Shown in pieces: positions 1,096 through 46,154 of a DNA stretch of 64,000 bases. The notes beneath the pieces are model-generated. The model was not told the DNA's origin, did no database searches, and worked only from the letters and a program-made list of their open reading frames with translations. Position 1 is the first letter of the stretch. Every line of letters begins with the position of its first letter. The DNA lies in NCBI GenBank assembly GCA_018816555.1, contig JAHIVT010000059.1:7309-71308 (forward strand), written 5' to 3'. This DNA comes from Pseudomonadota bacterium (GTDB lineage Bacteria; Desulfobacterota; Desulfobulbia; Desulfobulbales; SURF-16). The position numbers and the translations under genes are program-made.

Positions 1096-1313
1096 AAGAG
1101 AGGTATCCTTATTGCTTCAACTTTCTGACTTGGTCTATTTTACCGAAATAGCGGCTTTATATGACATTGTTACCGCCATGCTTTACGTCATTGGAATTCA
1201 GGAGACAGGAGATAGAATTGGCAATAGGTGATTTTATTACGTTAAATTTTTACTCCTGACTTCTGTATTCTTTACTTGTATCACCTGCAAATCTCCCATT
1301 TCAAACAAAAAGA

Positions 1314-11336: not shown

Positions 11337-11642
11337 TTGCTCATTATTAGATTCACTTTAGGTAATATTTCTTTTAATTTCAACTTCTTTTAACAGAATC
11401 TTTCCCGCTGGCAATCAGGAGAACCCTGTTGGCATTTGTCTTCATCTGCATACCGGAAGAGATGTCCTTGAATTCCCATCCAAAAAAAATGATTTTGCCT
11501 TTTCTCATTTTTATAACATAATAATGCAGGCAGCAACCTCTCTCAGGCTCGACCTCGGGACTGCCGAAAATCCGTCCCGTTTCCACTACTATTGCATCTT
11601 GCAGGAGAAAAACCTTTTCACCACTCAAACAAGGAGTCCAAA

Positions 11643-11957
11643 ATGAAAAAAATCGCTACACTACTCGCCGCATCATGTGCTCTCGTGCTCTTTGCGCTGC
11701 CGGTCCAGGCTGAAGAGGCCTCGGTGGAACTCGGCCACACCCTGTTTAATGATGCGGGGCTGGGAGCATCAAAAAATGACAAAAGCTGCAATACCTGCCA
11801 TGAAAACGGTAAAGGCATGGAAAAGGCGGGCGCCAGTTCCGATCTGGCCGCTCTGATCAACAAGTGTATCAAGGGCCCCCTGCAGGGTGAAGGAATCAGC
11901 GAAGATACCGTTGCCATGGAGTCCCTTAAACTGTACATCAAATCGCTGGCAAAATAG
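11643..11957 (+). CDS. Small secreted mono-haem c-type cytochrome
   Basis: It has the signal peptide MKKIATLLAASCALVLFALPVQA and a CxxCH haem motif (CNTCH). The SD AAGGAG lies upstream of the ATG at 11643; the track ORF starts earlier, at 11592. Confidence 0.7.
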   Translation: MKKIATLLAASCALVLFALPVQAEEASVELGHTLFNDAGLGASKNDKSCNTCHENGKGMEKAGASSDLAALINKCIKGPLQGEGISEDTVAMESLKLYIKSLAK

Positions 11958-11974
11958 CCGGTCAAAACCCACAA

Positions 11975-12020
11975 AAAACACGGTTGTAAACAGGAACGTT
12001 TTACAGCCGTGTTTTATTTT
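11975..12020 (+). terminator. Rho-independent terminator after the cytochrome c gene
   Basis: A 16-bp stem pairs aaaacacggttgtaaa (11975-11990) with tttacagccgtgtttt (12000-12015), with one G.U pair. The loop is 9 nt and a T-rich tail follows. Confidence 0.7.
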
Positions 12021-12034
12021 CCCAGGAGACAGAA

Positions 12035-12763
12035 ATGACCCAGATGCTCATCTATGAGAAAATCGTTGTTCTCGACATCAAGAAACACAAAAACACCAGA
12101 GTTGCCCCGGTGACTGATTTTTCCTTTGCCGCCTCGGCCAATTCCATACCCATTGCCGGGGTGGAATTCATCGAGGCGTCAAAGGATTACCCCATTGCCT
12201 TTATCAAAAACAGCCAGAGCGCTTACATCCCCACCATCATTTTAGGGCTGCAGGACAACCAGAACCTCTTTGTCTCAAAGGAAGGAAAGTGGAACGCCTT
12301 TTACATTCCCGCCTACATCAGGCGTTATCCGTTCGTGCCGTCAACCACCAATGAGGCAGGCAAGCTGAACATCTGCATCGATGAAGCATACAAGGGAATT
12401 GACGCGGAAAAGGGCACTCCCGTCTTCAATGAAGACGGAACCCCGGCGCCGATGCTGGAAAAAGCGGTACAGCTGATCCAGGATTATCATATGCAGATGC
12501 AGCATACCAATTCCTTTACCTCCCGCCTGGCGGATAGCGGCGTGCTGCAGGAAATGAAGGCCGAATTCGGCACCAGGGACGGCAGCAAGAAATTCAGGCT
12601 GAGCGGAATCTTTGTGGTGAATGAGGAAAAACTGCGCGCCCTCGATGATGCAAAGGTGCTCGATTTTTTCAGAAAAGGCGAATTTGCCTGGATTTACAGC
12701 CATCTGACCTCGCTCTCCAATTTCGCGAGGATGCTGGACAAATTCTTTGCCCAGCCGAAATAG
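12035..12763 (+). CDS. SapC family protein
   Basis: 242 aa. The N-terminal pattern (ANSIPIAGVEFIEASKDYPIAFIK, YIPAYIRRYPF) is typical of SapC. Confidence 0.6.
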   Translation: MTQMLIYEKIVVLDIKKHKNTRVAPVTDFSFAASANSIPIAGVEFIEASKDYPIAFIKNSQSAYIPTIILGLQDNQNLFVSKEGKWNAFYIPAYIRRYPFVPSTTNEAGKLNICIDEAYKGIDAEKGTPVFNEDGTPAPMLEKAVQLIQDYHMQMQHTNSFTSRLADSGVLQEMKAEFGTRDGSKKFRLSGIFVVNEEKLRALDDAKVLDFFRKGEFAWIYSHLTSLSNFARMLDKFFAQPK

Positions 12764-12809
12764 GAGACTCATCCGCCGATAACAGGGATGCCATCTTTCC
12801 CGCCTCTCC

Positions 12810-31831: not shown

Positions 31832-31878
31832 AATCTGAGATTCCCTGATTTCCGCCAACCTGGCCATAACATAAAGAA

Positions 31879-31912
31879 AGGGAACTGACCGCACAGTCAG
31901 TTCCCTTTTTTT
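31879..31912. terminator. Rho-independent terminator hairpin between the convergent 310-aa gene and the RyR gene (end of the cassette)
   Basis: The stem pairs agggaactgac (31879-31889) with gtcagttccct (31895-31905), followed by a T-run to 31912 on the plus strand. The minus-strand tail is T/C-rich, so it may act in both directions. Confidence 0.7.
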
Positions 31913-31933: not shown

Positions 31934-32251
31934 TTATTGCCGAAAAATTCCAAGCCTGATCATTTCGGCAATGATCGCCTTGGCACCCTCCACGTCGATT
32001 CGTTTTTCCGATTCCGGGAGGTGCTCATACGGGACGAGATTCGGCTGCAGCTTCCGGGCTTCATCCCGCTCTTCCCCGTAGCGCCACCCCTGGCCAATCC
32101 TCTCCGCCGCCCACCTGTCATGGTTGACCCGGGCGATTGCCTCCAGCGCGTCGCCCATGACCGCTGCCGCACGCTCCAGTTCGTCGCGACCGGCAATCCG
32201 CGGCTCATACTCCCCGAAAGGTGTCGCGATCTTTTTTACTGCCGCGCTCAA
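31934..32251 (-). CDS. Small RyR-domain protein (ryanodine-receptor repeat, Pfam RyR type); fourth gene of the cassette
   Basis: 105 aa. NHDRWAAERIGQGWRYGEERDEARKLQPNLVPYEHLPESEKRIDVEGAKAII matches the RyR pattern (H-x-x-W-x-x-x-R-x-x-x-G-W-x-Y-G...P-x-L-V-P-Y-x-x-L-P-E-x-E-K). A TTG start at 32251 overlaps the CHAT gene stop (TTGA), and an SD AGGAGA lies 7 nt upstream. Confidence 0.7.
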   Translation of the reverse strand: MSAAVKKIATPFGEYEPRIAGRDELERAAAVMGDALEAIARVNHDRWAAERIGQGWRYGEERDEARKLQPNLVPYEHLPESEKRIDVEGAKAIIAEMIRLGIFRQ

Positions 32252-34215
32252 GGTCTCTCCTTTTGGGGGGATACATTACTGTCACCGAGCGCGGCAAGTG
32301 CGGCCCTGGCAAAATCATCCCATTCATTTTGTTTCCAGATATCGACATAGCGGCGGAACTGCCGCATGGTTGATTGCACGGGAAACTCCTTGGGACCACA
32401 AGTTTCCAGGATCTCGTTGCAGCAACGGATAATTTCCTTCTTAGCCTCCTCCGCACTGTACTGCTCGCCTCCATAAAGAGCGCCCAGCATTTCCAGTTCC
32501 GCCAGCGTTCCGCAGGCCCAGGCCCGCTCGCTCCCAACCGCATTGAGCAACCTCCAGTGGCTGATTTGCCGAGCTGTGCTCCACCAGTGACCATGTTTTT
32601 TTGCCAATTCGGTCATGCCGACTTTTTCAGCCCTCATTAAGACCGCCAGCATTGACAGATACTGGGTGATAACCCAGTTGTTGGAGGGCTCGGCCACCAT
32701 GGCCTGCCTGTATAACAGGCAGCATTTCTGATAGGCTTCCAGTTTTTCCTTCTCCTTGCCTGCGATCTGCTCATAGGCGATGCCGATCCGTTTTTCACTG
32801 GCAGCGCTCACCCCCAGTCGTTCAGCCAGTTCCCTGTCGGAAGATTGCGCCTCAGGTTCTTCCCGCCATGCTTGCAGTTCCTCACGGATGGAGGCACAGA
32901 GACCATCCATCTCCCCGGTCACCGTTTTCTCATCCTGGCCCTCAAACTCTCCGATCTTGAGCAGATCATCGATCCGCGCGAATTTGGTTTCGATCCGCCC
33001 GCGGGTCTGCTTTTCGCGAAAATCGCTGACCTGATTTTCAAAATCCCAGGGCACGGTTGCATAGGTCACGATACTCGCCCAGTCATGCGTTTCCGGGCAA
33101 GAGGTGCGCAGACGCTGCCGCACTTCGTGGAGGACGCAGCGGGGATCGGCCCCCTTGAGCAGACGTTTGTACAGTACTTCAGTAAAGATGGTCGAGGAAC
33201 GCATCCACAGGGGAAACTGGGAGGCAAAGACCCAGGGGATGCCGGCGGCGTGCAGCTCGTGGGCTATGCTGCCGCCGGGGGTGAGCACGGAGCGCACATT
33301 GCCGGAATCGCAGGTTGCCAGCGAGAGCACAGTGGGCCGATGACGGGCGGCGCAGTCCAAAGCGCGGTCCGTGGTAAGGGCAATGGCGAGCCGCTCGCCG
33401 TCAACCACATCGACCTCTGCCGGGTTCGTGCTGTCGCACAACGCAAGCCCGTACTGCTGGTCGCCGGCATGATCATAGGGGGCGCCGTGGGCCAGGATAT
33501 GGACATGGGTGTACTCGGTATCCATACAGGCCTGCCGGATCTGCTCAAGCGTTGCTTCCGGCAGCACGGTGAGTATATTTTTTACCTCGGCCAGCCGCGC
33601 TTCCTCACTGTTCTTGATTTTTATCCAGGGGTCAATAGCGCGGCGCAGGGCAACCAGATGCCGTTCGGCAGGCACCACCGCGAGTCCGCCAGGGGAGGCA
33701 AAGATAAACAGGATGCGGGGCGGACGATTCCATTCCACCGGCAGGGGCCGGCCGCGCCGCACCTCCCTGGTCAGGGTGATGGGTGTCTTTGATTGCAGAA
33801 AGAGCGGCGAACCGGATCCGGGAAAACCTGCCGGGGCAATGGCCGCCTCAAAAGGCAAAAGAGCCAGTTCAAAACCGGAAAGCGACAGCCGCAGATGCAC
33901 AAACTTTCCCTTGGCCGCCTGGACGCTGCCGAGTTCGGCAAGCAGGCCGGGAACCTGGCCGAACATCTGACCGATGGTCTCGCCCAGTTCGCGCAGCTCG
34001 GCCTCCCGCTGACCTGCGGGCACAGGTGTTCCCTCGGTGTAATAGCGGAGCCGTTCCAGGCGGATGAGCAACTGCCGCTGTTCAAAGGGCAGGCGTACGG
34101 TCACCGGTCCGTCGGCACCGCAGAGGACGAGGTAAGGGGTCAGCGGTGACAGGAGCTGGTTGTGCGCCGGGCCGGGTCGCAGGATTTCCAGTTTGACGTT
34201 GTGGATCTCAGACAT
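32248..34215 (-). CDS. CHAT-domain (caspase-like) protease with a C-terminal helical-repeat region; third gene of the cassette
   Basis: The His/Cys dyad context is THVHILAHGAP (His codon at about 33487-33489) and VLSLATCDSG (Cys codon 33310-33312). An upstream ELALLPFE motif is typical of CHAT N-regions. I prefer the ATG at 34215 (MSEIHNVKLEIL) with SD GAGG, 4 nt after the stop of the upstream gene; the track ORF extends to 34362. Confidence 0.8.
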   Translation of the reverse strand: MSEIHNVKLEILRPGPAHNQLLSPLTPYLVLCGADGPVTVRLPFEQRQLLIRLERLRYYTEGTPVPAGQREAELRELGETIGQMFGQVPGLLAELGSVQAAKGKFVHLRLSLSGFELALLPFEAAIAPAGFPGSGSPLFLQSKTPITLTREVRRGRPLPVEWNRPPRILFIFASPGGLAVVPAERHLVALRRAIDPWIKIKNSEEARLAEVKNILTVLPEATLEQIRQACMDTEYTHVHILAHGAPYDHAGDQQYGLALCDSTNPAEVDVVDGERLAIALTTDRALDCAARHRPTVLSLATCDSGNVRSVLTPGGSIAHELHAAGIPWVFASQFPLWMRSSTIFTEVLYKRLLKGADPRCVLHEVRQRLRTSCPETHDWASIVTYATVPWDFENQVSDFREKQTRGRIETKFARIDDLLKIGEFEGQDEKTVTGEMDGLCASIREELQAWREEPEAQSSDRELAERLGVSAASEKRIGIAYEQIAGKEKEKLEAYQKCCLLYRQAMVAEPSNNWVITQYLSMLAVLMRAEKVGMTELAKKHGHWWSTARQISHWRLLNAVGSERAWACGTLAELEMLGALYGGEQYSAEEAKKEIIRCCNEILETCGPKEFPVQSTMRQFRRYVDIWKQNEWDDFARAALAALGDSNVSPQKERP

Positions 34216-34219
34216 GTCT

Positions 34220-35713
34220 TTACCTCGTGAACTGTTGAATGATCGTGCGGGTGACGGGATCGGTTCCTGCAATGTGGGCCAGTTCGCCGACCACTGTGCC
34301 GTCTTCGTCGGCCCTGATGCAGACCGCGCTCTGTTGCCGCAGGACAAAGGATTGCCGGTCAAAGACCGCCTGATCGATATCCTTCATCCGGCCTTTGACA
34401 AGCAGCTCATACACCGGCTTGAAGGTTTCTTCGCTGGCAAGCATGGCCTCGGTGAAACGGAGCAGGCGGATCCAGGTGCCGCAATTAAAATAAAAACGGC
34501 CGCCGCCCAGATCGATGGCGCGTTCAAGATGGGTATGACCGGTGACGATGAAATGGATACCCTGCCCCACCGAGTCGACCATCTCCTTGCAGGCGTCGTC
34601 CCGGTCCGCTATCTCGAAAGTCTTGTCACCCTTGAGCCAGTCTTTCAGTGCCCGGCGCAGGGCCTCGATCTTGCTGACGCCGCTAAACCAGCCGGTGAGC
34701 CGGTCCCAGAGATACTGGCCGGTACCGAGGGTTTCGTCCTGGGGATCAGTGACGGCGCTGCCGGTCTTGTATTGCTTTTCCGCCGCCAGCAGCAGGGCGT
34801 CGGCTGAGGGACGGCTGGCCCCGGCACCGCTGCGCAGTCCCTCCATGAGGTTTGGTCCCAGCAGACCCTCCACAGCCACGGGCCGTGCCTGCTTTTTGGC
34901 CGGGGCGGTGAAACCCTCGGCCGAAAGCCGCTGGTCCACCTCCCTGCTGCCCTCCACCTTCTCACCGATAACCGGGATGAGGCGGTTGATCTTTTCGAGC
35001 TGGCCGGGGTCAAGGGCCAGGAGCACGCCGACAGCGGCCGTCATCTCCGGTTTTAAAAGGTCAATCCAGGGATATTGCCCCTTCACCTTGTTCATGACGT
35101 CCTTGACCATCTTAGTGCCGGCGTTGGGCTCCCATTCGCCAGCCTTAAGCGATCGGCCGCTGTTGAGCCGCCGGGCCGCCTTGGCGAGGTCCTCGTAACG
35201 GACATAGTTCCAGGCGTCCACTTCGTTGCCGTGGGTGCAGAACACCCGGGCGCCGCCCACCAGGCAGGAGTAGCCGGCCCCCATGGTGGAAAACTCGATG
35301 CGGGCCCGGGCCAGGAGATCAGCACCGGCGAGCCGTTCGACCACGGCGCGCTGTACCACCGGAAAAGACAGCTCAAGGTCGTGGTTGCCAAGGGCGATGA
35401 CCAGGGTGCGTTTGTCAATTTTCACAAAATCCGCCAAGGCTTCCCAGATGGGGGCAAAAGCAGGATCTGCCATGATCCGTTTGATCACGGTCTCGGCATT
35501 GTCCACGGCGATGTAGCCGCCGCTCTCCTCGGCCAGGGTGTCGATGACATCACCGTTTAAGACCAGGGCCACTTGCCCGTCCGGCTTTTGTGCCGCCACC
35601 CAGCGGATGAATCCCGCCAGTTTCCCGGTCTCCCGGAGAATCTGAAAACCGGGTTCACCTCCCATGTGGAGGTCGGAGATGACATGAACTTCGTCGAATT
35701 GGGGTAAGGGCAT
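34220..35713 (-). CDS. Calcineurin-like metallophosphoesterase; second gene of the cassette
   Basis: All five MPE motifs occur in order: VISDLHMGG (DxH), NGDVID (GD), LGNHD (GNHD), CTHGNE (H) and VTGHTH (GHxH). A roughly 180-aa insertion precedes the last motif. An SD AAGGAG lies 8 nt upstream of the ATG at 35713. Confidence 0.8.
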   Translation of the reverse strand: MPLPQFDEVHVISDLHMGGEPGFQILRETGKLAGFIRWVAAQKPDGQVALVLNGDVIDTLAEESGGYIAVDNAETVIKRIMADPAFAPIWEALADFVKIDKRTLVIALGNHDLELSFPVVQRAVVERLAGADLLARARIEFSTMGAGYSCLVGGARVFCTHGNEVDAWNYVRYEDLAKAARRLNSGRSLKAGEWEPNAGTKMVKDVMNKVKGQYPWIDLLKPEMTAAVGVLLALDPGQLEKINRLIPVIGEKVEGSREVDQRLSAEGFTAPAKKQARPVAVEGLLGPNLMEGLRSGAGASRPSADALLLAAEKQYKTGSAVTDPQDETLGTGQYLWDRLTGWFSGVSKIEALRRALKDWLKGDKTFEIADRDDACKEMVDSVGQGIHFIVTGHTHLERAIDLGGGRFYFNCGTWIRLLRFTEAMLASEETFKPVYELLVKGRMKDIDQAVFDRQSFVLRQQSAVCIRADEDGTVVGELAHIAGTDPVTRTIIQQFTR

Positions 35714-35737
35714 TGCTGTTCTCCTTGGGTTAGATAG

Positions 35738-38686
35738 TTATGGTGTCTGAATGGTGGCCTTGGCCGGGTCGGCGACGGCCAGCAATTTTTCAAGTTCCTG
35801 GACTTCCCGGTCCCGACGGTGGTAGCCGGTTTCCGCGACCAGTTTTTTGACCTTAACTAGGTGTTCGCGGGCGGAGGGCAAGTCGTTTTCGGCCAGCAGC
35901 AGTCGGCAGCTCTCGAGATGATAATCGGTGAGGAAGAGACGCATACCGCAGCGTTCGGCGATTTCAAAAACTTCGTCCAGGTCGCGGCGGGCAGAGCCAA
36001 ATTGCCCCTGCTCCCGGCAGAAGAAGGCCCGGTCCAGCAGGCCGCGGGGAAGATAATCCTGTCTCCCTGCCTTACGCAGGAAATCAACGGCCACGGCCAG
36101 ATGGCTGACGGCTTCGGCCGTCTCGTCCAGCCGCTGGCAGGCCCGGCATAGGGTGAGATGGTCCAGGCCGATGTCGAGGGGCCAATTTTCAGCCTTAATC
36201 CATTCAAGAGTTTTCTCCGCCCGCTCCCTAGCCTCGGCCGGCCGGTCGAGTTCAAGGAGCAGGTCACAGTAGCGATAGCCCTGCAAGGAGTAGAGGAAAG
36301 GGTACTGGGGCTGGCACTCCCGCTGCATGGCCTCGGCCTGGCGGAACAGCTCCTCCGCTTCGGCCAACCGGCCGTCCTGATGGAGGGAGCCAGCACGGGT
36401 GGTGCGGGTGGCCAAGTGCCAAAAGGCATCACCGCTCTGGTCGGCCAGCTCCACCGACCTTTTCCCATACTCCATAGCCCGGTCCAGGTCACCCGTGACG
36501 AGGAAAAGTTCGCTGAGGTTGCCGGCAATGATGGTCGCATCTTGCCAATTTTCCTGCTGGACCCGCATTTCCAAACCGGCCCGCATCGGCCCGGCCGCCT
36601 CGTCCAACCGACCCAGGGCTCGGAGGCTGAAACCGGCCCAACTCAGAAGCGCCGCCTGATCAAATTCGCGAAGTCCGGTCGCGGGCCGGTCCCAAAGCTT
36701 CTCGAAAAAGTTAGCCAAGGCGCCCAGATCGGAGCCGAATGCGCCGAGTTTGCTCGTGCAGTAATGGTCGGTCATCCTTATGAGTCGTTGCCAGTAAACC
36801 TCCTCCAGCGTCTCCTGCTGCCGGCCGGCCCGGCAGCCATGGGCGCAGGCGTAAAAAAGCGGAGCCATTTCCTCGATGGTGTCCGGCAGTTCCCTGGCAA
36901 TGCCCTTGTAATGCTCATAAAGCCGCAGGTTGCCCTCCTGCCAGGCTGAGGGGAAATGCTTTTGAAGAAGGTCGGCCATATGCTCCCGCACCAGGGGGTG
37001 GCAGTCCAGGTCGCCGGGGCGATGGCTGCTTGTCGGGGCCAGGAGACCGAAGCGCCGCAGTCGACTGAGGCACTCATGGCGGTCTCCTTTTTCCACTGCC
37101 ATGATGCGGCCGGTCAACTCTGGGATGGCCGGCGGGGTGAGGAGTGCTGCCAGGGCCTCCCTGTCGGCCGGGCGATCAAAGAGGCCAAGGAGCCGCAGAT
37201 ACTCGACCTCCGGTGAATCCCCTAAAAGACCGACCAGGGCGGCCATAACCCGCCGGGGTTGGCGACCATGCTCCTCGGGGAGGTCCAGGTCAGGGATATC
37301 GGCCGCGTGTTGGATGTGGTGTTCGGGGATCTCATGGAGATAGGCGGCCAGGAGCTTGACGGCCAGGGCGTGGTTGCCAAAGGCTCGCGAAGCCTCCTCC
37401 AGCTCCAGGTCCGTGCCCCGCACCCCGCCCACGCGCAAAAGCGCTCGGCCGGCTGCGGCGGAAATCTGCTCCAGGTTGCGTGCCTGAACGGTTTGCGGGA
37501 AACGACGGAGATCAGCCACCTCTTCCCGACTGGTGATGAGGCAGAGGCCGGGATTATTCCTGGCCAGTTCCGTGACCAGGGCAGCAAGGCCGGGGTCCTT
37601 GATGCGGCCCTTGTCAAAATCATGCTCGGCCTGCAACGGCTCCAGGCCGTCCAGCACCAGCAGCGTCCGCTGCTGCTTGATGAGGCCTGCCAGCCGCTGG
37701 CCCTTGTCCCAGGGAGAGCCGGTAATAGGATTCGGGTCGCCGAACCAGGCCAGGGCCCCGGCAATGAAGCGGTCCGCCGAGGTGACCCGCTCCCCGCTCC
37801 CCTGGCTGTAAAAAGACCAGCCAAAGACTCGGGCCGCACCGCGATAGTTGTCCGCGGCCATCTCGGCAAGCCAACGGTTGACCAAAGTGGATTTGCCCAC
37901 CCCACCCCAGGCAACAAAAGAGATAATATTGGTTTTGCCCTGCTCCCAGGCACTGTCCAGTAACTCAAGCTCCGCCTCCCGACCAAAGAGTTCTGCCCCG
38001 GTTATAGGCAGACGGGAGATCTCCACCGGAGGCAGCAATAATTCCAAGAGCGAGGTTGGCGTACTTGATTGGCTGAGTGCTTCTTCCGAAAAGTCAATGT
38101 TGAGCAAGAAATCCTGTTCTGTGGGAATGTCCTTATCAGAGAGGCCCGGCAGTGACGGTCCCATTACATTGCCAAGGATCTCATCAATCAACAGATTTTC
38201 AAAAACGAAAGCCTCATGCTCCGGGACGGTCTGCTGCGCCTGTTCCGCCACCTTGATAGCAAAATCCGCGAGCTGCTGTTTCCGCTTTGTTTTACCCCTA
38301 ATGGCAGCAAGACACTTGTTGCCGGTGGGAAACATCTGGATGCCTTTGAGCCAGCGGATGGCCTGCCACGGGCAGGGCTCAGCCAGTAGGGGCAGGATGG
38401 TCAGGTTTTCAGCCGCCCGCCGTTTAAGCAGGGCCGGCACCTCCTCCTTGATGATAAAATCCGAGGCCAGAAAATTTTTGGTGATGAGGCAGACCGCTAC
38501 TCGGGCCCCCTCCACCGCCTCTTTAATCTCCGGGTACCAGTCAGCGCCGGTGTTGATCTTGCGGTCATGCCAGAGCAGCAGATCGCCTTGCTGCTCAAAT
38601 GCCTTGAGATGGGGGAGAAGCTGATTTTTCCACTCCTCATCCAGGTGGCTATAACTGATGAACACCGTGGGCCTGGCAGTACTCAT
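35738..38686 (-). CDS. TIR - NB-ARC (STAND NTPase) - TPR protein; first gene of the cassette
   Basis: The N-terminal TIR is TVFISYSHLDEEW...ARVAVCLITKNFLASDFIIKEE. Walker A is AWGGVGKSTL (DNA 37886-37907). Walker B is NB-ARC-like, TLLVLDGLE, followed by CLITSRE. About 550 aa of C-terminal TPR-like repeats follow. The start is either the ATG at 38686 or the TTG at 38746. Confidence 0.85.
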   Translation of the reverse strand: MSTARPTVFISYSHLDEEWKNQLLPHLKAFEQQGDLLLWHDRKINTGADWYPEIKEAVEGARVAVCLITKNFLASDFIIKEEVPALLKRRAAENLTILPLLAEPCPWQAIRWLKGIQMFPTGNKCLAAIRGKTKRKQQLADFAIKVAEQAQQTVPEHEAFVFENLLIDEILGNVMGPSLPGLSDKDIPTEQDFLLNIDFSEEALSQSSTPTSLLELLLPPVEISRLPITGAELFGREAELELLDSAWEQGKTNIISFVAWGGVGKSTLVNRWLAEMAADNYRGAARVFGWSFYSQGSGERVTSADRFIAGALAWFGDPNPITGSPWDKGQRLAGLIKQQRTLLVLDGLEPLQAEHDFDKGRIKDPGLAALVTELARNNPGLCLITSREEVADLRRFPQTVQARNLEQISAAAGRALLRVGGVRGTDLELEEASRAFGNHALAVKLLAAYLHEIPEHHIQHAADIPDLDLPEEHGRQPRRVMAALVGLLGDSPEVEYLRLLGLFDRPADREALAALLTPPAIPELTGRIMAVEKGDRHECLSRLRRFGLLAPTSSHRPGDLDCHPLVREHMADLLQKHFPSAWQEGNLRLYEHYKGIARELPDTIEEMAPLFYACAHGCRAGRQQETLEEVYWQRLIRMTDHYCTSKLGAFGSDLGALANFFEKLWDRPATGLREFDQAALLSWAGFSLRALGRLDEAAGPMRAGLEMRVQQENWQDATIIAGNLSELFLVTGDLDRAMEYGKRSVELADQSGDAFWHLATRTTRAGSLHQDGRLAEAEELFRQAEAMQRECQPQYPFLYSLQGYRYCDLLLELDRPAEARERAEKTLEWIKAENWPLDIGLDHLTLCRACQRLDETAEAVSHLAVAVDFLRKAGRQDYLPRGLLDRAFFCREQGQFGSARRDLDEVFEIAERCGMRLFLTDYHLESCRLLLAENDLPSAREHLVKVKKLVAETGYHRRDREVQELEKLLAVADPAKATIQTP

Positions 38687-39063: not shown

Positions 39064-39085
39064 GGGGCGGTTCGCGAACCGCCCC
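39064..39085. repeat. Perfect 22-bp GC-rich palindrome
   Basis: The sequence is ggggcggttcgcgaaccgcccc. It lies about 40 nt downstream of the BI-1 gene stop on the minus strand, with no T-tail. Confidence 0.7.
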
Positions 39086-41041: not shown

Positions 41042-41806
41042 TCACGTCTCTGAAAGAATTCTAAACATATCACCCGGTTCCGGCAGAAAAACATGGAGCC
41101 CGCCAGTTCCGTCCAGCCCGGCAACTTTTTTCTTGGCGGTTTCTCTGCAGGTTCGCTCCAGATGTACCAGGGCAAGATGTTTCCCCCCGGCGCGGCTGGC
41201 AAATTCGAGGCATTTCATGATATTGCCGTGGTTTTCCACCTCCCTGTCCAGCCTGAAGGCCTCGTGCACGATCAAATCACATCCTGCTGCCAGAGTTTCC
41301 GTTTCCCTGGTCGGCCTGCCATCCCCGCTGTAAAAAATCCGGTGGCTGCCGTCATCAATGCGTATGGACAGACAACGCTGGGAATGGATATTTTCCGCCG
41401 AGCTCCAGTTCGTGCCGGCAATTTCCCGGGCCTGTCCCGGTTCTATTTCCACAAAATCAAGGTGGTACATGAGCCGCGGCAGAAAGCCGGGGTAGGCAAG
41501 CTCCATGGCCGCCGTAATCTTTTCCAGGATGCCCTGCTGCCCGGCAATAACCAGCTTTTTCCTCCGGCCCATTTCCCAGAATCTGAGGAGCAACAGCGGC
41601 ATGCCGAAAAAATGATCGCCATGAAAGTGAGAAATCCAGACAGCGTCCAGTTCGTCCGGATCGCTGCTCAGACCAAAATAGAGATGGGGGGTGGTAAAAC
41701 CGCAGTCCAGCAGGAACCGCTGCCCCTTTCCCGCTGTCACATGAAGCGAGGTATTGGGACAGTGTTGATCGCAGGCTTCGCCAACCCCTAAAAAGTGTAT
41801 TTTCAT
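41042..41806 (-). CDS. MBL-fold metallo-hydrolase (RNase Z-like)
   Basis: 254 aa. The HxHxDH motif is ISHFHGDHF and the N-terminus is MKIHFLGVGEA. Confidence 0.75.
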   Translation of the reverse strand: MKIHFLGVGEACDQHCPNTSLHVTAGKGQRFLLDCGFTTPHLYFGLSSDPDELDAVWISHFHGDHFFGMPLLLLRFWEMGRRKKLVIAGQQGILEKITAAMELAYPGFLPRLMYHLDFVEIEPGQAREIAGTNWSSAENIHSQRCLSIRIDDGSHRIFYSGDGRPTRETETLAAGCDLIVHEAFRLDREVENHGNIMKCLEFASRAGGKHLALVHLERTCRETAKKKVAGLDGTGGLHVFLPEPGDMFRILSET

Positions 41807-42008: not shown

Positions 42009-45000
42009 ATGGCAAATTTTTCATTCACCCAGGAAATTACTCACCTGCTCTCAAAATACGAAGCTCTGGCGCCGGAAGAGCAGAAACTGCTCCAGTTCAT
42101 CTCGATTGTTTTCGAGCCCGCCGGCGCTGCAACCACCATCAGCTGTTTTCGGGAATTTACCGGCAGGCATGATGATGAAAGTCTGCCCGGTGAGGAGCGA
42201 TCACAATCAGCGGCGCTACGCAAACTGCAGGAACAGGGTCTCGCGACCTGGCGCTGCCAGTGCAACCCCCTAATTGTGGAAATCATCAGCAGAAAGGCCC
42301 TGAGCGCAGGTAACTTTGCCCGCATGGCCCGCATCATTGCCAGAAATCTTCCCGTCCAGGGGCAGGCGTACGATGCCCTGCAGCAGAAAGGCCAGCGCCA
42401 TCTGCGGGAAATGCGCATCGGGCTGTATCTGAACGATTTCGATCATTTTAATGACCATCTGCTGCGCTACTATGACTGCCCGGAAACCTCGGAACAGCAC
42501 TCGCCCCTGGTGGAGATCGTCAACAACCCGTTTGAGGCGCAGTGGTTCAGCACCCTGCCGCCCCACCTGCAGCTCCACGGCCTGCATGAAATAAGCAGAA
42601 AAAGCCTGCTCCATCTTGAATCGTTTGCCCAGCCCCTTGCCTATCTCTCCGATGAAAACATCCTGAAGATCATCCCTCCACCGGGCTGGCCATCAGTCTA
42701 TTATCTGCTTATCCTCAACCAGTTGCTGCGCGCCGACATCAAGGCAGCCCGGGAAAAAATCGCCGAAGGCAAAAACCATATTGATTCCTTCGGCCTGCGG
42801 GGCTGGCTGGAATTCCTGGAGGGCCGCAACAGCGATGCCATCGCCAGCTTCCAGGAGGATCTGATCGATCTGCGCCTCAAAAAAGAGTCGAAAAACGTTT
42901 TTTTCATCGGCATGGAAGGACTCATCTTCATCCTGGCTCTGCTGAAATCCGGAGACTACAGAAAGTATCCGATCATTGCCACCTTCATCTCCACCTTGGA
43001 AACAGAGCAGAGTAATAATCCCCTGCTTCCTGCCTACAGGATTCTCCAGCAGGTGACCAAGGCAAAACTGGAAAACTTCAAGCTGGACTCCACTGCACAG
43101 ATATGGCAACAGGATGAAAAAGACGCGGTGACGGCCCTATTCATGGGGCTTGGCAGTTTCTGGCTCAATGGCGCGCTGGAATCAGCCCAGCGCCACGAAC
43201 TGCATGAATTTTACACACGGGCCAGAGAAAACGGCTACGACTGGCTGGCCATGGAATATGCTTCCCTGCTCTATCAAGCCACCGAAATCGAGTCTTATCA
43301 AGACTTCAGCCGCTCTATCTGCGGGGAATCGGCACTCACCTCTCTGCACTCCGTGCTACCCCATGAGAAATCGTGGCAACGAGCCCTGAAGGCCTTAAAT
43401 ATCGTCAGCCTGGAAAATGAGGAGAATGGCCAACTCCAGTACAGAATGGTCTGGATGGTGGACTTCAAGGACGGTTTTGTTACCATTTACCCCAGGGAAC
43501 AGAAGTTTACCGCCAGCGGCAAATGGAGCCAGGGACGCTCCGTGGCCTTGAAGCGTCTGTATGCCGGAGAGAATCTCTCTTTCCTCACGGAGCAGGACCA
43601 GAGAATCAGGGCAACATTACGCAAAAAGGAGTTCAGCCATGAAACATCCTTTGAATTTGACATGGATGAAACCCTGTCCGCCCTGGTCGGTCACCCCCTG
43701 CTCTTTTCCAGCACACACACCTCAGTGCCGGTTGAATTCACCAGAGGGGAACCGGAACTGCATGCCACCCAGAAAGATGACAAGGTGCTGCTGGAATTTT
43801 CCTCACCCATCGGCGACGAAAAAGTAATGGCCTTACGGGAAACCCCCACCCGCTTCCGCATTATCGAGATCTCCGAAAAACACCGCAAAATTGCGGCAAT
43901 CATCGGCGACGACGGCCTCATCGTTCCGGAAGGCGCTAAAAAACAGGCCCTTGAAACCCTGGGCAATCTTTCCTCCTGCCTGACCATTCACTCTGATATC
44001 GGCGCCACCTCCAGAGAAATAGAAGAGGTACCGGCGGCGGACAAGATCATCATGCAACTGCTGCAGGTGGGTAACGGCTTCAGAGTCTCCATGCTGGTTA
44101 AGCCCTTTGCCACCGGCGGTCCCTATCTCTACCCCGGCGAAGGGGCGATGAACGTCATGGCCGAAATCAACGGCAAACGCCTGCAAACCTGTCGCAACCT
44201 TGACAAGGAGAGAGAGAACTGCGCGCAGATTGAAGAGAGATGCCCTACCCTGGCCAGACTGGGCGGGATGGACGGCGAATGGTTCATCGAAAATCTGCAG
44301 GATTGCCTTGAGGTTCTTTCTGAAATCCAGAACCTGGGGGATGATGTCATCATTGAGTGGCCGGAAGGGGAAAAACTCACCATCCGTCATCATGCCTCGT
44401 TTCATGATTTCCATGTGCAGATCAGACAGAAACAGAACTGGTTTGAACTGGAAGGACAGCTCACCATCGACCAGGAAAAGGTGATGGAGATGAAAACGCT
44501 GCTGGAACTGACCCAGGCCAATTCAGGCAGATTCATTCCGCTGGGCAAAGGCGAATTTATGGCCCTGTCCCGGGAATTCCGCAAACAGCTGGATGAATTA
44601 ACCTCCTTTACCGAACCCCTTGGCCAGAAACGGCGGATGCATCCTCTGGCATCCTGCGCCCTGGAAGGTTTCACGGAAAGCGGCGTTCAGTTGACCGCCG
44701 ACAGCTATTGGCAGGAACAGCTGCAGCGCATCCGGGAATCACGCTCCTTTCACAGTGAGGTGCCGACAACCCTGCAGGCTGAACTGCGCGAGTACCAGAT
44801 TGAGGGATTCAAATGGCTGGCCCGTCTCAAACACTGGGGTGTCGGCGCCTGTCTGGCAGACGATATGGGACTGGGGAAAACCGTGCAGAGCCTGGGCATC
44901 ATTCTGCAGGAGGCGCCCCAGGGCCCTTCCCTGGTGGTAGCCCCCACCTCCGTCTGCATGAACTGGCAGGAGGAAATCCTCCGTTTCGCTCCCACCCTGC

Positions 45001-46154
45001 AGGCGGTGATCTTCGGCGGCAAAGAACGGCAACAGCTGCTTGACACTCTTGCGCCTTTTGACGTGCTTATCTGCAGCTACGGTCTTCTGCAGCAGGAAAC
45101 CACACTCCTTTCCTCCAGAAAATGGCAGGTCATTGTGCTGGACGAGGCCCAGGCCATCAAAAATATTGCCACCAAGCGCTCCAGGGCAGCCATGGAACTC
45201 GATGGCAATTTCAAGATGATCACCACCGGCACCCCCATCGAAAACCACCTGGGAGAACTATGGAATCTTTTCAACTTCATCAATCCTGGTCTTCTCGGTT
45301 CCCTGGATCAGTTCAATCAGCGCTATGCCCTGGCCATTGAAAAAGACAAGGACAAGAATGCCCGGAAAAAGTTAAAAAAACTGATCCAGCCCTTCATCCT
45401 GCGGCGTTTGAAAAGTCAGGTCCTGGAGGAGCTGCCGCCGCGTACCGAGGTCACTCTCCAGGTCAATATGAGCCCTGAAGAGACAGCCTTCTACGAAGCA
45501 TTACGCTTCCGCGCCCTGGAGAAAATCGTACGCAGTGACGCCTCTCCCTCCCACCGGCATATGCAGATCCTGGCGGAGATCATGAAACTGCGGCAGGCCT
45601 GCTGCAATCCCAAGCTTGTCCAGCCGGATACGACCATTCAAAGCTCCAAACTCGAGCTTTTCGGCACCATCATCACGGATCTCATCGAAAACCGCCATAA
45701 GGCCCTGGTTTTCAGCCAGTTTGCCCGGCACCTGCACATCCTGCGCGCCTTTCTTGACCAACGCCATATCACCTATAAATATCTTGACGGCTCCACACCG
45801 GCGCTGAAACGCCAGGAACAGGTGGCTGAGTTCCAGGCCGGAGAAGGGGATCTCTTCCTCATCAGCCTCAAGGCAGGCGGTCTGGGGCTCAACCTCACCG
45901 CTGCCGATTATGTTATTCATATGGACCCATGGTGGAACCCGGCGGTGGAGGACCAGGCCTCGGATCGAGCCCATCGCATCGGCCAGAAGCATCCCGTCAC
46001 CGTTTACCGGCTTGTCACCAAAAACACCATCGAGGAAAAAATCATCAGATTGCATCATGACAAACGCGAACTGGCTGACAGCCTCCTGGAAGGCAGCGAT
46101 ATGAGCCATAAACTGCGGGCGGAAGATCTCCTGGAGCTCCTGAAAGATTTTTAG
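42009..46154 (+). CDS. SNF2-family helicase/translocase with a roughly 900-aa uncharacterised N-terminal region
   Basis: Motif I is LADDMGLGKTVQ and motif II is VLDEAQAIKN. The C-terminal helicase lobe includes LISLKAGGLGLNLTAADYVIHMDPWWNPAVEDQASDRAHRIGQ. Confidence 0.85.
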   Translation: MANFSFTQEITHLLSKYEALAPEEQKLLQFISIVFEPAGAATTISCFREFTGRHDDESLPGEERSQSAALRKLQEQGLATWRCQCNPLIVEIISRKALSAGNFARMARIIARNLPVQGQAYDALQQKGQRHLREMRIGLYLNDFDHFNDHLLRYYDCPETSEQHSPLVEIVNNPFEAQWFSTLPPHLQLHGLHEISRKSLLHLESFAQPLAYLSDENILKIIPPPGWPSVYYLLILNQLLRADIKAAREKIAEGKNHIDSFGLRGWLEFLEGRNSDAIASFQEDLIDLRLKKESKNVFFIGMEGLIFILALLKSGDYRKYPIIATFISTLETEQSNNPLLPAYRILQQVTKAKLENFKLDSTAQIWQQDEKDAVTALFMGLGSFWLNGALESAQRHELHEFYTRARENGYDWLAMEYASLLYQATEIESYQDFSRSICGESALTSLHSVLPHEKSWQRALKALNIVSLENEENGQLQYRMVWMVDFKDGFVTIYPREQKFTASGKWSQGRSVALKRLYAGENLSFLTEQDQRIRATLRKKEFSHETSFEFDMDETLSALVGHPLLFSSTHTSVPVEFTRGEPELHATQKDDKVLLEFSSPIGDEKVMALRETPTRFRIIEISEKHRKIAAIIGDDGLIVPEGAKKQALETLGNLSSCLTIHSDIGATSREIEEVPAADKIIMQLLQVGNGFRVSMLVKPFATGGPYLYPGEGAMNVMAEINGKRLQTCRNLDKERENCAQIEERCPTLARLGGMDGEWFIENLQDCLEVLSEIQNLGDDVIIEWPEGEKLTIRHHASFHDFHVQIRQKQNWFELEGQLTIDQEKVMEMKTLLELTQANSGRFIPLGKGEFMALSREFRKQLDELTSFTEPLGQKRRMHPLASCALEGFTESGVQLTADSYWQEQLQRIRESRSFHSEVPTTLQAELREYQIEGFKWLARLKHWGVGACLADDMGLGKTVQSLGIILQEAPQGPSLVVAPTSVCMNWQEEILRFAPTLQAVIFGGKERQQLLDTLAPFDVLICSYGLLQQETTLLSSRKWQVIVLDEAQAIKNIATKRSRAAMELDGNFKMITTGTPIENHLGELWNLFNFINPGLLGSLDQFNQRYALAIEKDKDKNARKKLKKLIQPFILRRLKSQVLEELPPRTEVTLQVNMSPEETAFYEALRFRALEKIVRSDASPSHRHMQILAEIMKLRQACCNPKLVQPDTTIQSSKLELFGTIITDLIENRHKALVFSQFARHLHILRAFLDQRHITYKYLDGSTPALKRQEQVAEFQAGEGDLFLISLKAGGLGLNLTAADYVIHMDPWWNPAVEDQASDRAHRIGQKHPVTVYRLVTKNTIEEKIIRLHHDKRELADSLLEGSDMSHKLRAEDLLELLKDF

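What the first reader, a model, noticed from the sequence alone, without database searches (positions are those of the whole stretch)
34220..35713. Metallophosphoesterase with a large internal insertion, embedded between the TIR-STAND and CHAT genes
All five calcineurin-like motifs are present (DLH, GDVID, GNHD, HGNE, GHTH). The last motif is separated from the fourth by an insertion of roughly 180 aa that I cannot assign to a family.

Inference gives two alternative roles in a TIR-containing operon:
- A nuclease or phosphodiesterase effector, of the Mre11/SbcD or LpxH-like fold.
- A hydrolase that shapes or quenches a TIR-derived nucleotide signal.

Neither role is established for a partner of TIR-STAND proteins as far as I know.
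Basis: partly seen in the sequence, partly recalled or inferred. Interest (0 to 1): 0.6.

Follow-up and report, generated by a model that had tools for sequence, protein, structure and literature searches.

The report
Phosphoesterase locked to a CHAT protease
The gene is a real, probably active metal-dependent phosphoesterase with a large conserved insertion, but its constant partner across bacteria is the caspase-like CHAT protease encoded right after it, while TIR proteins such as the TIR-STAND gene upstream are frequent but optional neighbours, so this looks like an undescribed protease-phosphoesterase immune or cell-death module.

Summary
Window 34220-35713 (-) encodes a 497-aa calcineurin-like metallophosphoesterase (MPE). 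All five motifs are intact, and about 230 residues separate motifs IV and V. It lies in a four-gene operon: TIR-STAND-TPR, MPE, CHAT, RyR.

The interpretation needs re-centring. The obligate partner of the MPE is the CHAT protease, not the TIR-STAND protein.
- The same CHAT family follows the MPE in 80/80 species genomes, usually within 1-5 nt.
- It also follows it in 6/6 loci of distant relatives (32-37% identity).
- Starting from CHAT, 71/72 metagenome loci carry the MPE upstream.

TIR genes are optional but non-random neighbours. They occur in 17/103 lineages, in about 15 architectures, and are about 8-fold denser within 2.5 kb than at 5-10 kb.

The insertion has three parts: an invariant lid-like part, a variable acidic low-confidence loop of about 65 aa bounded by near-invariant Leu-Ser/Gly motifs, and a conserved helix. 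The nearest solved fold is LpxH. No hit was found in PADLOC, NCBIfam, PDB sequences, phages or the literature searched.

Best reading (about 0.4): a protease-gated pro-phosphoesterase effector pair, analogous to the nuclease-protease and "canu" systems, recruited here by a TIR-STAND sensor. Rivals are a hydrolase of a TIR-derived signal, a regulatory subunit of CHAT, and lipid metabolism.

The parts
34220..35713 (-). Metallophosphoesterase (MPE), 497 aa. LpxH-like dimetal core with an insertion of about 230 aa between motifs IV and V.
   Evidence: ORF and translation. Pfam Metallophos E=9.4e-9. Metal ligands invariant. AF2 model and Foldseek hit to LpxH, E=2.8e-6.
34550..35221 (-). Insertion, residues about 165-388. 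It has three parts. The N-terminal part (165-245) carries near-invariant motifs: WxPNAGT, N208, K211 and DLLKPE. The middle is a variable loop. The C-terminal part is a conserved helix (E350, R353, L356) followed by D363xxF366 and D372.
   Evidence: Column statistics over 136 family representatives. pLDDT is 50-68 for residues 167-245, below 50 for 246-344, and about 80 for 345-385. No Pfam family matches.
34730..34924 (-). Variable, acidic, low-confidence loop, residues 264-328. It is bounded by near-invariant [F/L]-L263-[S/G] and L329-G330. I predict it is a gating segment and that the bounding motifs are CHAT cleavage or docking sites (inference).
   Evidence: Length ranges 44-89 aa. Net charge is negative in 98% of 135 representatives, median -8. 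L263 is conserved at 97%, L329 at 97% and G330 at 86%.
32248..34215 (-). CHAT (caspase-like) protease, 655 aa. It has a conserved N-terminal region, a protease core with H243-G244 and C302, and a C-terminal TPR-like helical repeat domain. It is the obligate partner of the MPE.
   Evidence: Pfam CHAT E=1.2e-23. Catalytic dyad invariant. AF2 model and Foldseek hit to SAVED-CHAT 8tl0 and to TPR superhelices. Adjacency in 80/80, 6/6 and 71/72 loci.
35738..38686 (-). TIR-STAND(P-loop NTPase)-TPR protein, 982 aa. NLR/Avs-like sensor with an N-terminal TIR domain. It is a lineage-specific accessory to the pair.
   Evidence: Pfam TIR_2 E=8.6e-14, NACHT E=3.7e-5 (below the gathering score), AAA_16, TPR_MalT and TPR_12. 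PADLOC ThsB-like TIR E=1.6e-18. GGVGKST P-loop visible in the translation. The NTPase module was found only in L001-L003, and the same gene in L091.
31934..32251 (-). RyR-domain protein, 105 aa. Fourth gene of the operon; its start overlaps the CHAT stop codon by 4 nt.
   Evidence: Pfam RyR E=7.3e-18. Called as a gene in L001. A RyR gene lies next to the pair in 11 loci.
31877..31908 (-). Terminator-like hairpin that closes the operon after the RyR gene.
   Evidence: Stem of 14 pairs followed by a T-rich tail.

Best explanation
The MPE and the CHAT protease encoded immediately after it form one obligate two-gene module that is conserved and horizontally spread across many bacterial phyla.

Proposed mechanism:
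- The MPE is the effector, an LpxH-like dimetal phosphoesterase.
- It is made as a latent pro-enzyme. Its large insertion carries a conserved lid plus a variable acidic loop, which I propose occludes or mimics substrate at the dimetal site.
- The CHAT protease docks on the insertion through its conserved N-terminal region and/or its C-terminal TPR-like domain. It then cuts at the two conserved Leu-Ser/Gly motifs (after L263 and L329) and releases phosphoesterase activity.
- The active enzyme would degrade nucleotides, NAD-derived compounds or nucleic acid, and arrest or kill the cell.
- In this window the module has been captured by a TIR-STAND-TPR (NLR-like) sensor. On activation the sensor would switch CHAT on, either through a TIR product or through assembly.

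Shown here:
- obligate pairing and tight coupling of the two genes;
- intact catalytic sites in both proteins;
- the anatomy of the insertion;
- the recurrent TIR neighbourhood.

Inferred, not shown:
- the direction of control (CHAT acting on the MPE);
- the cleavage sites;
- the substrate;
- an immune role.
For: **Pairing**
- The MPE is followed by the same CHAT family in 80/80 species loci and in 6/6 loci of relatives at 32-37% identity, including Adhaeribacter and Nitrospira.
- Plasmid loci show the same arrangement.
- Starting from CHAT, 71/72 metagenome loci carry the MPE upstream.
- Stop-to-start spacing is mostly 1-5 nt or an overlap.
- Pairwise divergences of the two proteins correlate, r=0.76.

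**Both enzymes look active**
- The eight metal ligands are kept in at least 134/136 MPE representatives.
- The CHAT His-Gly and Cys are invariant.

**Insertion anatomy fits gating**
- It has a variable-length loop of 44-89 aa that is net negative in 98% of members and modelled at pLDDT<50.
- The loop is bracketed by L263 (97%) and L329-G330 (97% and 86%).

**Conserved regions that a monomer model cannot place**
The CHAT N-terminus (residues 1-155) and the MPE lid are highly conserved in sequence but poorly modelled as monomers. That is expected of interface regions.

**Precedent**
- MBL pro-nucleases with gating insertions are activated by trypsin-like or caspase-family partner proteases. The authors name protease co-evolution and active-site-blocking insertions as hallmarks for finding more such pairs (PMC12799240).
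- TPR-CHAT proteases cut at L|D, M|K and A|S (PMC11106740). Leu at the residue just before the cut (P1) is therefore plausible.

**Recruitment by different sensors**
The neighbouring TIR proteins include TIR-STAND, LRR-Roc-COR-TIR, SIR2-TIR, TIR-TPR, TIR-FGE-sulfatase and ThsB-like forms. This mirrors the 'recurrent acquisition' pattern of the nuclease-protease pairs.
Against: - No experiment and no complex model supports cleavage. Coordinates of the AF2 model were not available, so I could not check that the loop covers the active site.
- The N-terminal half of the insertion is as conserved as the catalytic motifs. It looks like a substrate-binding lid, as in LpxH, rather than a disposable plug.
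- Most loci (about 83% of lineages) have no TIR or other recognisable sensor nearby. There the CHAT-TPR protein would have to sense the trigger itself.
- Many loci sit among housekeeping genes rather than in defence islands. Only about 6-7 of 77 immediate upstream neighbours hit PADLOC models.
- Sequence conservation is high (55-60% identity across classes), which is unusual for defence genes.
- Strict co-occurrence is explained equally well if the MPE is a regulatory subunit of CHAT.
Confidence: 0.4

Rival explanations
1. Signal-processing enzyme of a Thoeris-like pathway. The TIR domain makes an ADP-ribose-derived nucleotide. The LpxH-like MPE cuts its pyrophosphate or phosphodiester bond, either to mature the ligand that activates CHAT or to quench it and reset the system. 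CHAT is the executioner protease.
For: - TIR genes are 8-fold denser within 2.5 kb of the pair than at 5-10 kb, and occur in 17/103 lineages in about 15 architectures.
- The catalytic Glu column is kept in 11/12 neighbouring TIR domains.
- The closest solved fold is LpxH, a nucleotide-diphosphate-sugar pyrophosphatase.
- Entry 2nxf, a zebrafish dimetal phosphatase, is also a weak hit. From memory this is ADPRibase-Mn; I did not verify that.
- TIR plus a caspase-like effector is an established system, type IV Thoeris, which signals with N7-cADPR.
Against: - About 83% of lineages have no TIR within 5 kb, yet they keep the MPE with intact ligands.
- No SLOG, Macro, SAVED or CARF-type ligand sensor was detected in CHAT.
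- By analogy with ring nucleases (my recollection, not checked here), accessory signal-degrading enzymes are usually sporadic. They are not 100% co-inherited and tightly spaced with the effector gene.
Confidence: 0.25
2. Regulatory or sensor subunit. MPE and CHAT form a stable heterocomplex. Binding or turnover of a small molecule (nucleotide alarmone or lipid) at the MPE site controls the CHAT protease. CHAT is the only effector and cleaves cellular proteins.
For: - Strict 1:1 pairing and tight gene spacing.
- Conserved regions in both proteins that cannot be modelled as monomers, which suggests an interface.
- Most loci lack any other sensor.
- The conserved polar lid residues (N197, T200, N208, K211, D218, K221, E223) look like a ligand pocket.
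Against: - No precedent I know of for a catalytically intact MPE acting as the sensor of a protease.
- It does not explain the acidic variable loop with its conserved Leu-Gly/Ser brackets.
Confidence: 0.2
3. Not immunity. The pair is part of lipid or envelope metabolism or remodelling: an LpxH-like lipid pyrophosphatase working with lipases, with CHAT as a processing protease.
For: - JGI annotates family members as LpxH, and LpxH is the best fold hit.
- A block of alpha/beta-hydrolase, ADC-like, patatin and GMC oxidoreductase genes abuts the pair in a gammaproteobacterial clade, about 20 loci. The first three families recur, rearranged, in Adhaeribacter (Bacteroidota).
- Lipase_3 is the upstream neighbour in 3 loci.
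- Many loci lie among housekeeping genes.
Against: - No NCBIfam LpxH or any other NCBIfam hit.
- No signal peptide or transmembrane segment is obvious by eye in either translation (not tested with a predictor).
- Patatin and hydrolases are also common immune effectors (my knowledge, not tested here).
- The patchy, horizontally transferred distribution, the GC-distinct island here and the TIR/NLR-like neighbours point to a conflict system.
Confidence: 0.1

Closest known systems
Pro-nuclease/protease pairs of Hachiman, AVAST and Lamassu, and the caspase-nuclease 'canu' system (Science 2025, PMC12799240)
   Same: - A hydrolase gene is paired with a co-inherited protease gene.
- The hydrolase carries low-confidence insertions with conserved small-residue motifs.
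- The pair is attached to different sensors, including STAND NTPases.
- In canu the protease is of the caspase family.
   Different: - The effector here is a calcineurin-like MPE, not an MBL-fold nuclease.
- The protease is a CHAT-TPR protein, not trypsin-like or MALT1-like with Ig domains.
- In the trypsin systems the nuclease gene is typically upstream, as the MPE is here. In the main canu clade the nuclease lies downstream of the caspase.
- Cleavage and activation are untested here.
- Most loci are stand-alone pairs.
Type IV Thoeris (TIR plus caspase-like protease, N7-cADPR; Rousset et al., bioRxiv 2024.10.24.620036)
   Same: - A TIR-domain protein is encoded next to a caspase-superfamily protease that carries a C-terminal non-catalytic domain.
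- The TIR domains are predicted to be catalytic.
   Different: - The third, obligatory component (the MPE) is absent from type IV Thoeris.
- The TIR here is fused to a STAND NTPase and TPR repeats.
- TIR is absent from most loci of this family.
- The protease is CHAT-type with a TPR-like tail.
LpxH (UDP-2,3-diacylglucosamine pyrophosphatase)
   Same: - Best solved-structure match, E=2.8e-6.
- Same superfamily.
- LpxH also has a helical insertion (lid) between motifs IV and V (my recollection of the LpxH structures).
   Different: - Only 10-18% identity.
- The insertion is about 230 aa instead of about 50.
- Motif III is GNHD rather than GNRD (the LpxH motif is from memory).
- No NCBIfam LpxH hit.
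- No lipid A gene context for the pair.
- Always paired with CHAT.
SAVED-CHAT and TPR-CHAT (Csx29/Craspase) of type III CRISPR systems
   Same: - The CHAT protease core is the best fold match (8tl0).
- These are specific endopeptidases that cleave a dedicated co-encoded substrate protein.
- TPR-type repeats are present in Csx29.
   Different: - No CRISPR, SAVED or cOA context here.
- The helical repeat domain is C-terminal rather than N-terminal.
- The putative substrate or partner is an MPE.

Membership tests
Calcineurin-like metallophosphoesterase superfamily (PF00149) | Five motifs, DxH / GDxxD / GNH[DE] / H / GHxH, that supply the dimetal ligands | tested here: met
   D14, H16, D55, N110, H111, H161, H393 and H395 are present and invariant. 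The Pfam hit is above the gathering score for motifs I-IV.
Calcineurin-like metallophosphoesterase superfamily (PF00149) | Beta-sandwich MPE fold | tested here: met
   The AF2 core has pLDDT mostly 85-98. Foldseek hits are LpxH, purple acid phosphatases, Mre11 and GpdQ.
LpxH (UDP-2,3-diacylglucosamine hydrolase) | Match to the curated LpxH model, a protein of about 240 aa with a short lid, and a lipid A pathway role | tested here: not met
   No NCBIfam hit at E<0.1. The protein is 497 aa with a 232-residue IV-V spacing. The constant neighbour is CHAT, not lipid A genes.
Mre11/SbcD nucleases | Mre11-type capping domain and a co-encoded SbcC/Rad50 ATPase | tested here: not met
   Only weak partial fold hits, E about 5e-3 over about 190 columns. 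No SbcC-like family appeared among the 25 most frequent Pfam families of the 77 immediate upstream neighbours. No sequence hit in the PDB.
Protease-activated pro-effector pairs (nuclease-protease, canu) | Effector strictly co-inherited with a protease gene | tested here: met
   80/80, 6/6 and 71/72 loci; distance correlation r=0.76.
Protease-activated pro-effector pairs (nuclease-protease, canu) | Effector is an MBL-fold nuclease | tested here: not met
   The effector is a calcineurin-like MPE.
Protease-activated pro-effector pairs (nuclease-protease, canu) | An insertion blocks the active site and is removed by the partner protease | not testable with these tools
   A variable acidic loop with conserved Leu-Gly/Ser brackets exists. 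Occlusion of the site and cleavage need a complex structure or biochemistry.
Thoeris (TIR signalling systems) | A TIR protein with catalytic Glu encoded next to an effector that carries a signal-binding domain | tested here: inconclusive
   The TIR is present with Glu in the conserved column. No known signal-binding domain was detected in CHAT or the MPE. TIR is absent from 86/103 lineages.
STAND/NLR-like (Avs, bNACHT) sensors (upstream gene) | P-loop STAND NTPase between an N-terminal effector or signalling domain and C-terminal repeats | tested here: met
   TIR_2, then NACHT/AAA_16 (below gathering scores) with a GGVGKST P-loop, then TPR_MalT/TPR_12.
CHAT/caspase-hemoglobinase fold proteases (downstream gene) | His-Gly and Cys catalytic dyad in a CHAT domain | tested here: met
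   PF12770 E=1.2e-23. H243-G244 and C302 are invariant. The fold matches SAVED-CHAT and caspase-4.

The most novel reading that the evidence does not exclude
This is the first metallophosphoesterase effector that is kept latent by an internal acidic gating loop and switched on by a dedicated caspase-like (CHAT) protease. It would form a widespread, self-contained two-gene cell-death or immune module. TIR-bearing NLR-like, ROCO-like and Thoeris-like sensors have repeatedly plugged into it. In that reading the window's operon is a bacterial counterpart of a TIR-NLR feeding a downstream protease-and-effector cascade.
Probability: 0.35. Interest if true: 0.8.

Novelty: new variant of a known kind. 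Interest (0 to 1): 0.62.

Why it matters
If the pair works as proposed, proteolytically licensed effectors would extend from MBL nucleases and gasdermins to the metallophosphoesterase superfamily.

It would define a large family with no functional annotation. At least 750 clusters at 50% identity score E<1e-30, members come from many phyla, and none matches PADLOC models.

It would also offer a tractable four-gene operon for asking how a bacterial TIR-NLR-like sensor hands over to a caspase-like protease.

The alternative, an MPE that processes a TIR-derived nucleotide for a protease, would be new too. It would add a signal-maturation or signal-reset step to TIR signalling.

Either way the testable unit is the MPE-CHAT pair, not MPE plus TIR-STAND.

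Tried and rejected
**Ideas rejected**
- **TIR-STAND as the conserved partner.** The STAND NTPase module was found only in L001-L003, and the same TIR-STAND-TPR gene in L091. The 77 immediate upstream neighbours fall into 111 different Pfam families.
- **A true LpxH.** No NCBIfam hit and the wrong genomic context.
- **Mre11/SbcD.** Only weak partial fold hits, and no SbcC-like family among the frequent upstream neighbours.
- **A named domain in the insertion.** Pfam finds nothing at E<0.1. Profile hits to delta-crystallin (E=0.25-0.44) are spurious low-complexity helical matches.

**Searches that found nothing**
- Sequence searches of the PDB with the MPE and with CHAT.
- PADLOC and NCBIfam for the MPE.
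- Viral contigs and the phage collection.
- Literature searches for a CHAT plus metallophosphoesterase system returned no relevant paper. The Aravind-lab papers list calcineurin-type phosphoesterases only generically, as effectors of NTP-dependent conflict systems.

**Tools unavailable**
- I did not attempt a complex prediction.

**Minor dead ends**
- Fusion proteins P0359 (774 aa) and P0216 gave no informative extra domain.
- The single exception to the pairing, L169, has 6-phosphogluconate dehydrogenase and a DM13 protein upstream of CHAT on a 5.5-kb contig. I did not pursue it.
Full report
**1. What is at the coordinates**

Window 34220-35713 (minus strand) is an ATG-started ORF of 497 aa.
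- D14-L-H16
- G54-D55-V-I-D58
- G109-N110-H111-D112
- H161-G-N-E164
- G392-H393-T-H395

Pfam Metallophos matches residues 9-175 (profile positions 3-130 of 191) at E=9.4e-9 and 36.4 bits, against a 21.5-bit cut-off. The profile stops at the insertion, so I verified motif V in three other ways.
- H393 and H395 are invariant among 36 close homologues and present in 135 of 136 representatives of the wider family.
- An AlphaFold2 model (mean pLDDT 72, core mostly 85-98) matches LpxH over the whole chain, Foldseek E=2.8e-6. Purple acid phosphatases, Mre11 and GpdQ follow.
- Deleting residues 176-380 in silico lets Metallophos_2 and the MPE-fold protein Vps29 align HGNE and GHTH together, though weakly: E=0.004 and about 1.

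H161 and H393 are 232 residues apart (family median 229). The insertion alone hits no Pfam family. The whole protein hits nothing in NCBIfam, PADLOC or PDB sequences.

**2. The operon**

The gene is the second of four co-directional genes on the minus strand.

| Gene | Coordinates | Size | Notes |
|---|---|---|---|
| TIR-STAND-TPR | 35738-38686 | 982 aa | TIR_2 E=8.6e-14; GGVGKST P-loop; NACHT and AAA_16 below the gathering score; MalT-like TPRs |
| MPE | 34220-35713 | 497 aa | 24 nt after the STAND stop |
| CHAT protease | 32248-34215 | 655 aa | 4 nt after the MPE stop, with a GAGG upstream |

These assignments rest. Terminator-like hairpins bracket the unit at 39064-39085 and 31877-31908. 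The unit is GC-rich (0.60-0.635), whereas the sequence on its low-coordinate side is about 0.45 and that on its high-coordinate side about 0.53. This is consistent with acquisition by horizontal transfer. The closest syntenic genome locus comes from a Thermodesulfobacteriota MAG (L003).

**3. The family and its real partner**

The MPE belongs to a large, uniform family.
- More than 1,100 homologues were found, with the listed hits nearly all about 500 aa.
- 751 clusters at 50% identity score E<1e-30.
- Members come from Desulfobacterota, Gamma-, Beta- and Alphaproteobacteria, Methylomirabilota/Rokubacteria, Nitrospirota, Bacteroidota, Chloroflexota, Planctomycetota and Acidobacteriota.
- Sources label it only 'metallophosphoesterase' or, by COG transfer, 'LpxH'.

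The pairing with CHAT holds in every sample I took.
- In 80 of 80 loci from different GTDB species, the MPE is followed at once by a protein of one CHAT family. That family shares the N-terminal region, protease core and C-terminal domain of the window's protein. Stop-to-start distances are mostly 1-5 nt or overlaps.
- Six loci of distant relatives (32-37% identity to the window MPE; Adhaeribacter, Nitrospira and metagenomic genomes) show the same arrangement. So do Paraburkholderia megaplasmids and a 37.5-kb Methylobacterium plasmid.
- The reciprocal test starts from the CHAT family in metagenome contigs. There, 71 of 72 loci with at least 600 nt upstream carry the MPE. The exception, L169, is a 5.5-kb contig.
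- Pairwise divergences of the two proteins correlate, r=0.76.

By contrast, a STAND NTPase like the window's was found upstream only in L001-L003, and the same TIR-STAND-TPR gene in L091. The nearest relatives, L004, L005 and L007 (76-79% identical MPE), have MPE-CHAT-RyR without it. Across 77 loci the immediate upstream gene falls into 111 different Pfam families, including RNase E, M16 peptidase, flotillin, DsbD and GMC oxidoreductase. The conserved unit is therefore MPE-CHAT.

**4. The TIR link is facultative but not random**

Sensitive searches, confirmed with Pfam, found TIR-domain genes close to the pair in 28 of 168 loci. That corresponds to 17 of 103 lineages after collapsing at 90% CHAT identity. 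About 15 architectures are involved:
- TIR-STAND-TPR
- LRR-Roc-COR-TIR
- SIR2-TIR
- TIR-TPR
- TIR-FGE-sulfatase
- TIR-GGDEF
- TIR-pterin-4a-dehydratase
- PG-binding-TIR
- ThsB-like and other stand-alone TIRs

Most lie directly upstream or downstream.

As an internal control I compared TIR ORF density by distance from the pair. It is 3.8 per 100 kb within 2.5 kb, against 0.46 per 100 kb at 5-10 kb (2 in 435 kb). The catalytic glutamate column is occupied by Glu in 11 of 12 of these TIR domains, including the window's.

For CHAT the link is obligate. For TIR it is enriched but optional. For STAND it is confined to one lineage.

**5. Anatomy of the insertion**

Across 136 representatives (32-58% identical to the window protein) the insertion has three parts.
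- **Residues about 165-245.** These are as conserved as the catalytic motifs: D166, N169, W194, N197, G199, T200, V203, N208, K211, D218-L-L-K221-P-E223. The model shows helices at pLDDT 50-68. This resembles a substrate-binding lid, which is what the much shorter LpxH insertion forms (my recollection).
- **Residues about 246-345.** pLDDT is below 50, and both length and sequence vary. The segment between residues 264 and 328 spans 44-89 aa. It is net negative in 98% of members (median -8, against about neutral for the rest of the protein) and 61% of its residues are disorder-promoting. It is bracketed by two near-invariant dipeptides: [F/L]-L263-[S/G] (L263 at 97%) and L329-G330 (97% and 86%). 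Weaker Leu-Leu motifs lie inside the segment.
- **Residues 346-388.** A conserved helix (E350, L352, R353, L356), followed by D363xxF366 and D372.

**6. The CHAT partner**

Its His243-Gly and Cys302 are invariant. The AF2 model (pLDDT 75) gives a confident protease core. The best solved-structure match is the SAVED-CHAT filament 8tl0 (E=7e-7), followed by caspase-4. The C-terminal helical repeat domain (392-645) is very confident and resembles TPR superhelices. Weak TPR-S Pfam hits support this.

The first 155 residues carry the family's most conserved sequence, LExLRxGPxHNQLLSPLTxY. Yet they are modelled at pLDDT below 50. Highly conserved regions that cannot be modelled as monomers, in both proteins, are what an obligate interface would look like. 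This is inference.

**7. Mechanism**

No tool result shows what the MPE does. I weigh four readings.

**(a) Protease-gated pro-enzyme, about 0.4.** CHAT cuts the acidic loop at the Leu-Ser/Gly brackets and frees an otherwise occluded phosphoesterase, which acts as the effector. In this window the TIR-STAND protein is an added sensor.
- For: obligate co-inheritance, activity-competent sites in both enzymes, and the loop anatomy.
- For: the precedent of MBL pro-nucleases with gating insertions activated by trypsin-like or caspase-family partners and repeatedly captured by Hachiman, AVAST, Lamassu and 'canu' loci. Those authors predicted that other enzyme classes would follow the same logic (PMC12799240).
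- For: TPR-CHAT proteases are known to cut at L|D, M|K and A|S (PMC11106740).
- Against: half of the insertion is lid-like rather than a plug. There is no structural or biochemical evidence. Most loci lack an external sensor. The defence-island signal is modest, with about 6-7 of 77 upstream neighbours hitting PADLOC.

**(b) Hydrolase of a TIR-derived signal, about 0.25.** The TIR enrichment and the LpxH-like (pyrophosphatase) fold make this chemically attractive, and TIR plus caspase is an established design in type IV Thoeris. However, 83% of lineages have no nearby TIR and still keep an intact MPE. No known ligand-sensor domain is detectable in CHAT.

**(c) Regulatory or sensor subunit of a CHAT executioner, about 0.2.**

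**(d) Lipid or envelope metabolism, about 0.1.** This is suggested by the LpxH resemblance and by a recurrent neighbouring block of alpha/beta-hydrolase, ADC-like, patatin and GMC oxidoreductase genes.

**8. Comparison with what is known**

- **Membership.** The protein is a member of the calcineurin-like MPE superfamily: motifs, profile and fold were all tested and met. It is not LpxH: no NCBIfam hit, twice the size, different context. It is not Mre11/SbcD.
- **Nuclease-protease and canu pairs.** The module works like them in genetic logic. It fails their defining feature, an MBL nuclease, so it is an analogue and not a member.
- **Type IV Thoeris.** The window's operon shares TIR plus a caspase-superfamily protease. 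It differs by the obligatory MPE, the STAND fusion, and the dispensability of TIR across the family.
- **Literature.** Full-text searches combining CHAT with metallophosphoesterase or phosphoesterase and with phage, defence or TIR terms returned no relevant paper. A 2026 domain-centric screen does not mention either domain. Aravind-lab surveys list calcineurin-type phosphoesterases only generically among effectors. The library is incomplete, so prior description in a supplement cannot be excluded.

**9. Verdict**

The finding is best described as a widespread, uncharacterised MPE-CHAT two-gene module with a recurrent, optional association with TIR sensors. This window shows it in a TIR-NLR-like four-gene operon.

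Novelty: a new variant of a known kind, namely protease-coupled effector modules and TIR-caspase systems. Interest: 0.62.

Noticed in passing
window 31934-32251 (-); also L003, L004, L005, L007, L019, L052, L090, L091, L092, L114: A small RyR-domain protein (Pfam RyR E=7e-18) is the fourth gene of the operon, overlapping the CHAT stop codon. A RyR gene lies next to the MPE-CHAT pair in 11 loci, in at least three arrangements: same strand downstream, opposite strand downstream, and opposite strand upstream. It occurs with or without a TIR gene. Its role is unknown.
   Followed up: partly
L020 4367-9856 and about 20 other loci (L032, L038, L042-L046, L053, L054, L107-L109, L122, L124, L130, L131, L134, L150); L083 11021-15512: A four-gene block of alpha/beta-hydrolase, acetoacetate-decarboxylase-like, patatin and GMC oxidoreductase genes sits directly upstream of the pair in Methylobacter, Rheinheimera, Shewanella and Azotobacter. 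The first three families recur, rearranged, downstream of the pair in Adhaeribacter (Bacteroidota). This suggests a larger lipid-acting module linked to the pair.
   Followed up: partly
ADC-like gene of that block, e.g. L038 5628-6464 versus L032 5636-6502: Identity of the ADC-like protein to the L020 copy is bimodal, about 79-93% or about 51-53%. The flanking hydrolase, patatin and GMC genes stay at 60-90%. This looks like replacement of one gene by a divergent allele inside a conserved block.
   Followed up: no
window 32000-38000 versus flanks: The four-gene operon has GC 0.60-0.635, against 0.45-0.46 on its low-coordinate side and about 0.53 on the other. This is consistent with a horizontally acquired island.
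   Followed up: partly
CHAT protein residues 1-155 (window 33751-34215): This is the most sequence-conserved part of the CHAT family (LExLRxGPxHNQLLSPLTxY, PFE, TRE motifs). AlphaFold models it at pLDDT below 50. It may fold only against a partner.
   Followed up: partly
L170 (Methylobacterium plasmid NZ_CP099612.1, 37.5 kb), locus 9186-14084: On this small plasmid the pair lies beside a cluster on the opposite strand: Dam methyltransferase, a second and different 401-aa metallophosphoesterase, and two hypothetical proteins. This could be another defence system.
   Followed up: no
L083 5417-6607; L085 6099-6908: A subtilisin-like Peptidase_S8 gene lies immediately upstream of the pair in two distantly related loci. 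It is co-directional in L083 and divergent in L085.
   Followed up: no
L051 13489-14643 (-), also L112; L076 13482-14885: Unusual TIR fusions flank the pair. A TIR-GGDEF protein lies downstream of the pair in L051 and L112, which also carry LRR-Roc-COR-TIR upstream. A SIR2-TIR protein lies directly downstream in L076.
   Followed up: partly
window 41042-41806 (-) and 42009-46154 (+): Just beyond the operon lie a 254-aa metallo-beta-lactamase-fold protein that hits the Pfam 'Anti-Pycsar Apyc1' family and a 1381-aa SNF2-family helicase. Both are also present in the syntenic locus L003, so they are probably resident genes rather than part of the island.
   Followed up: no
L169 (WBZL01014190.1) 381-3360: This is the only CHAT-family locus found without an MPE upstream. 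It has 6-phosphogluconate dehydrogenase and a DM13-domain protein there instead. It may reflect a rearrangement, a misassembly or a genuine solo CHAT.
   Followed up: partly
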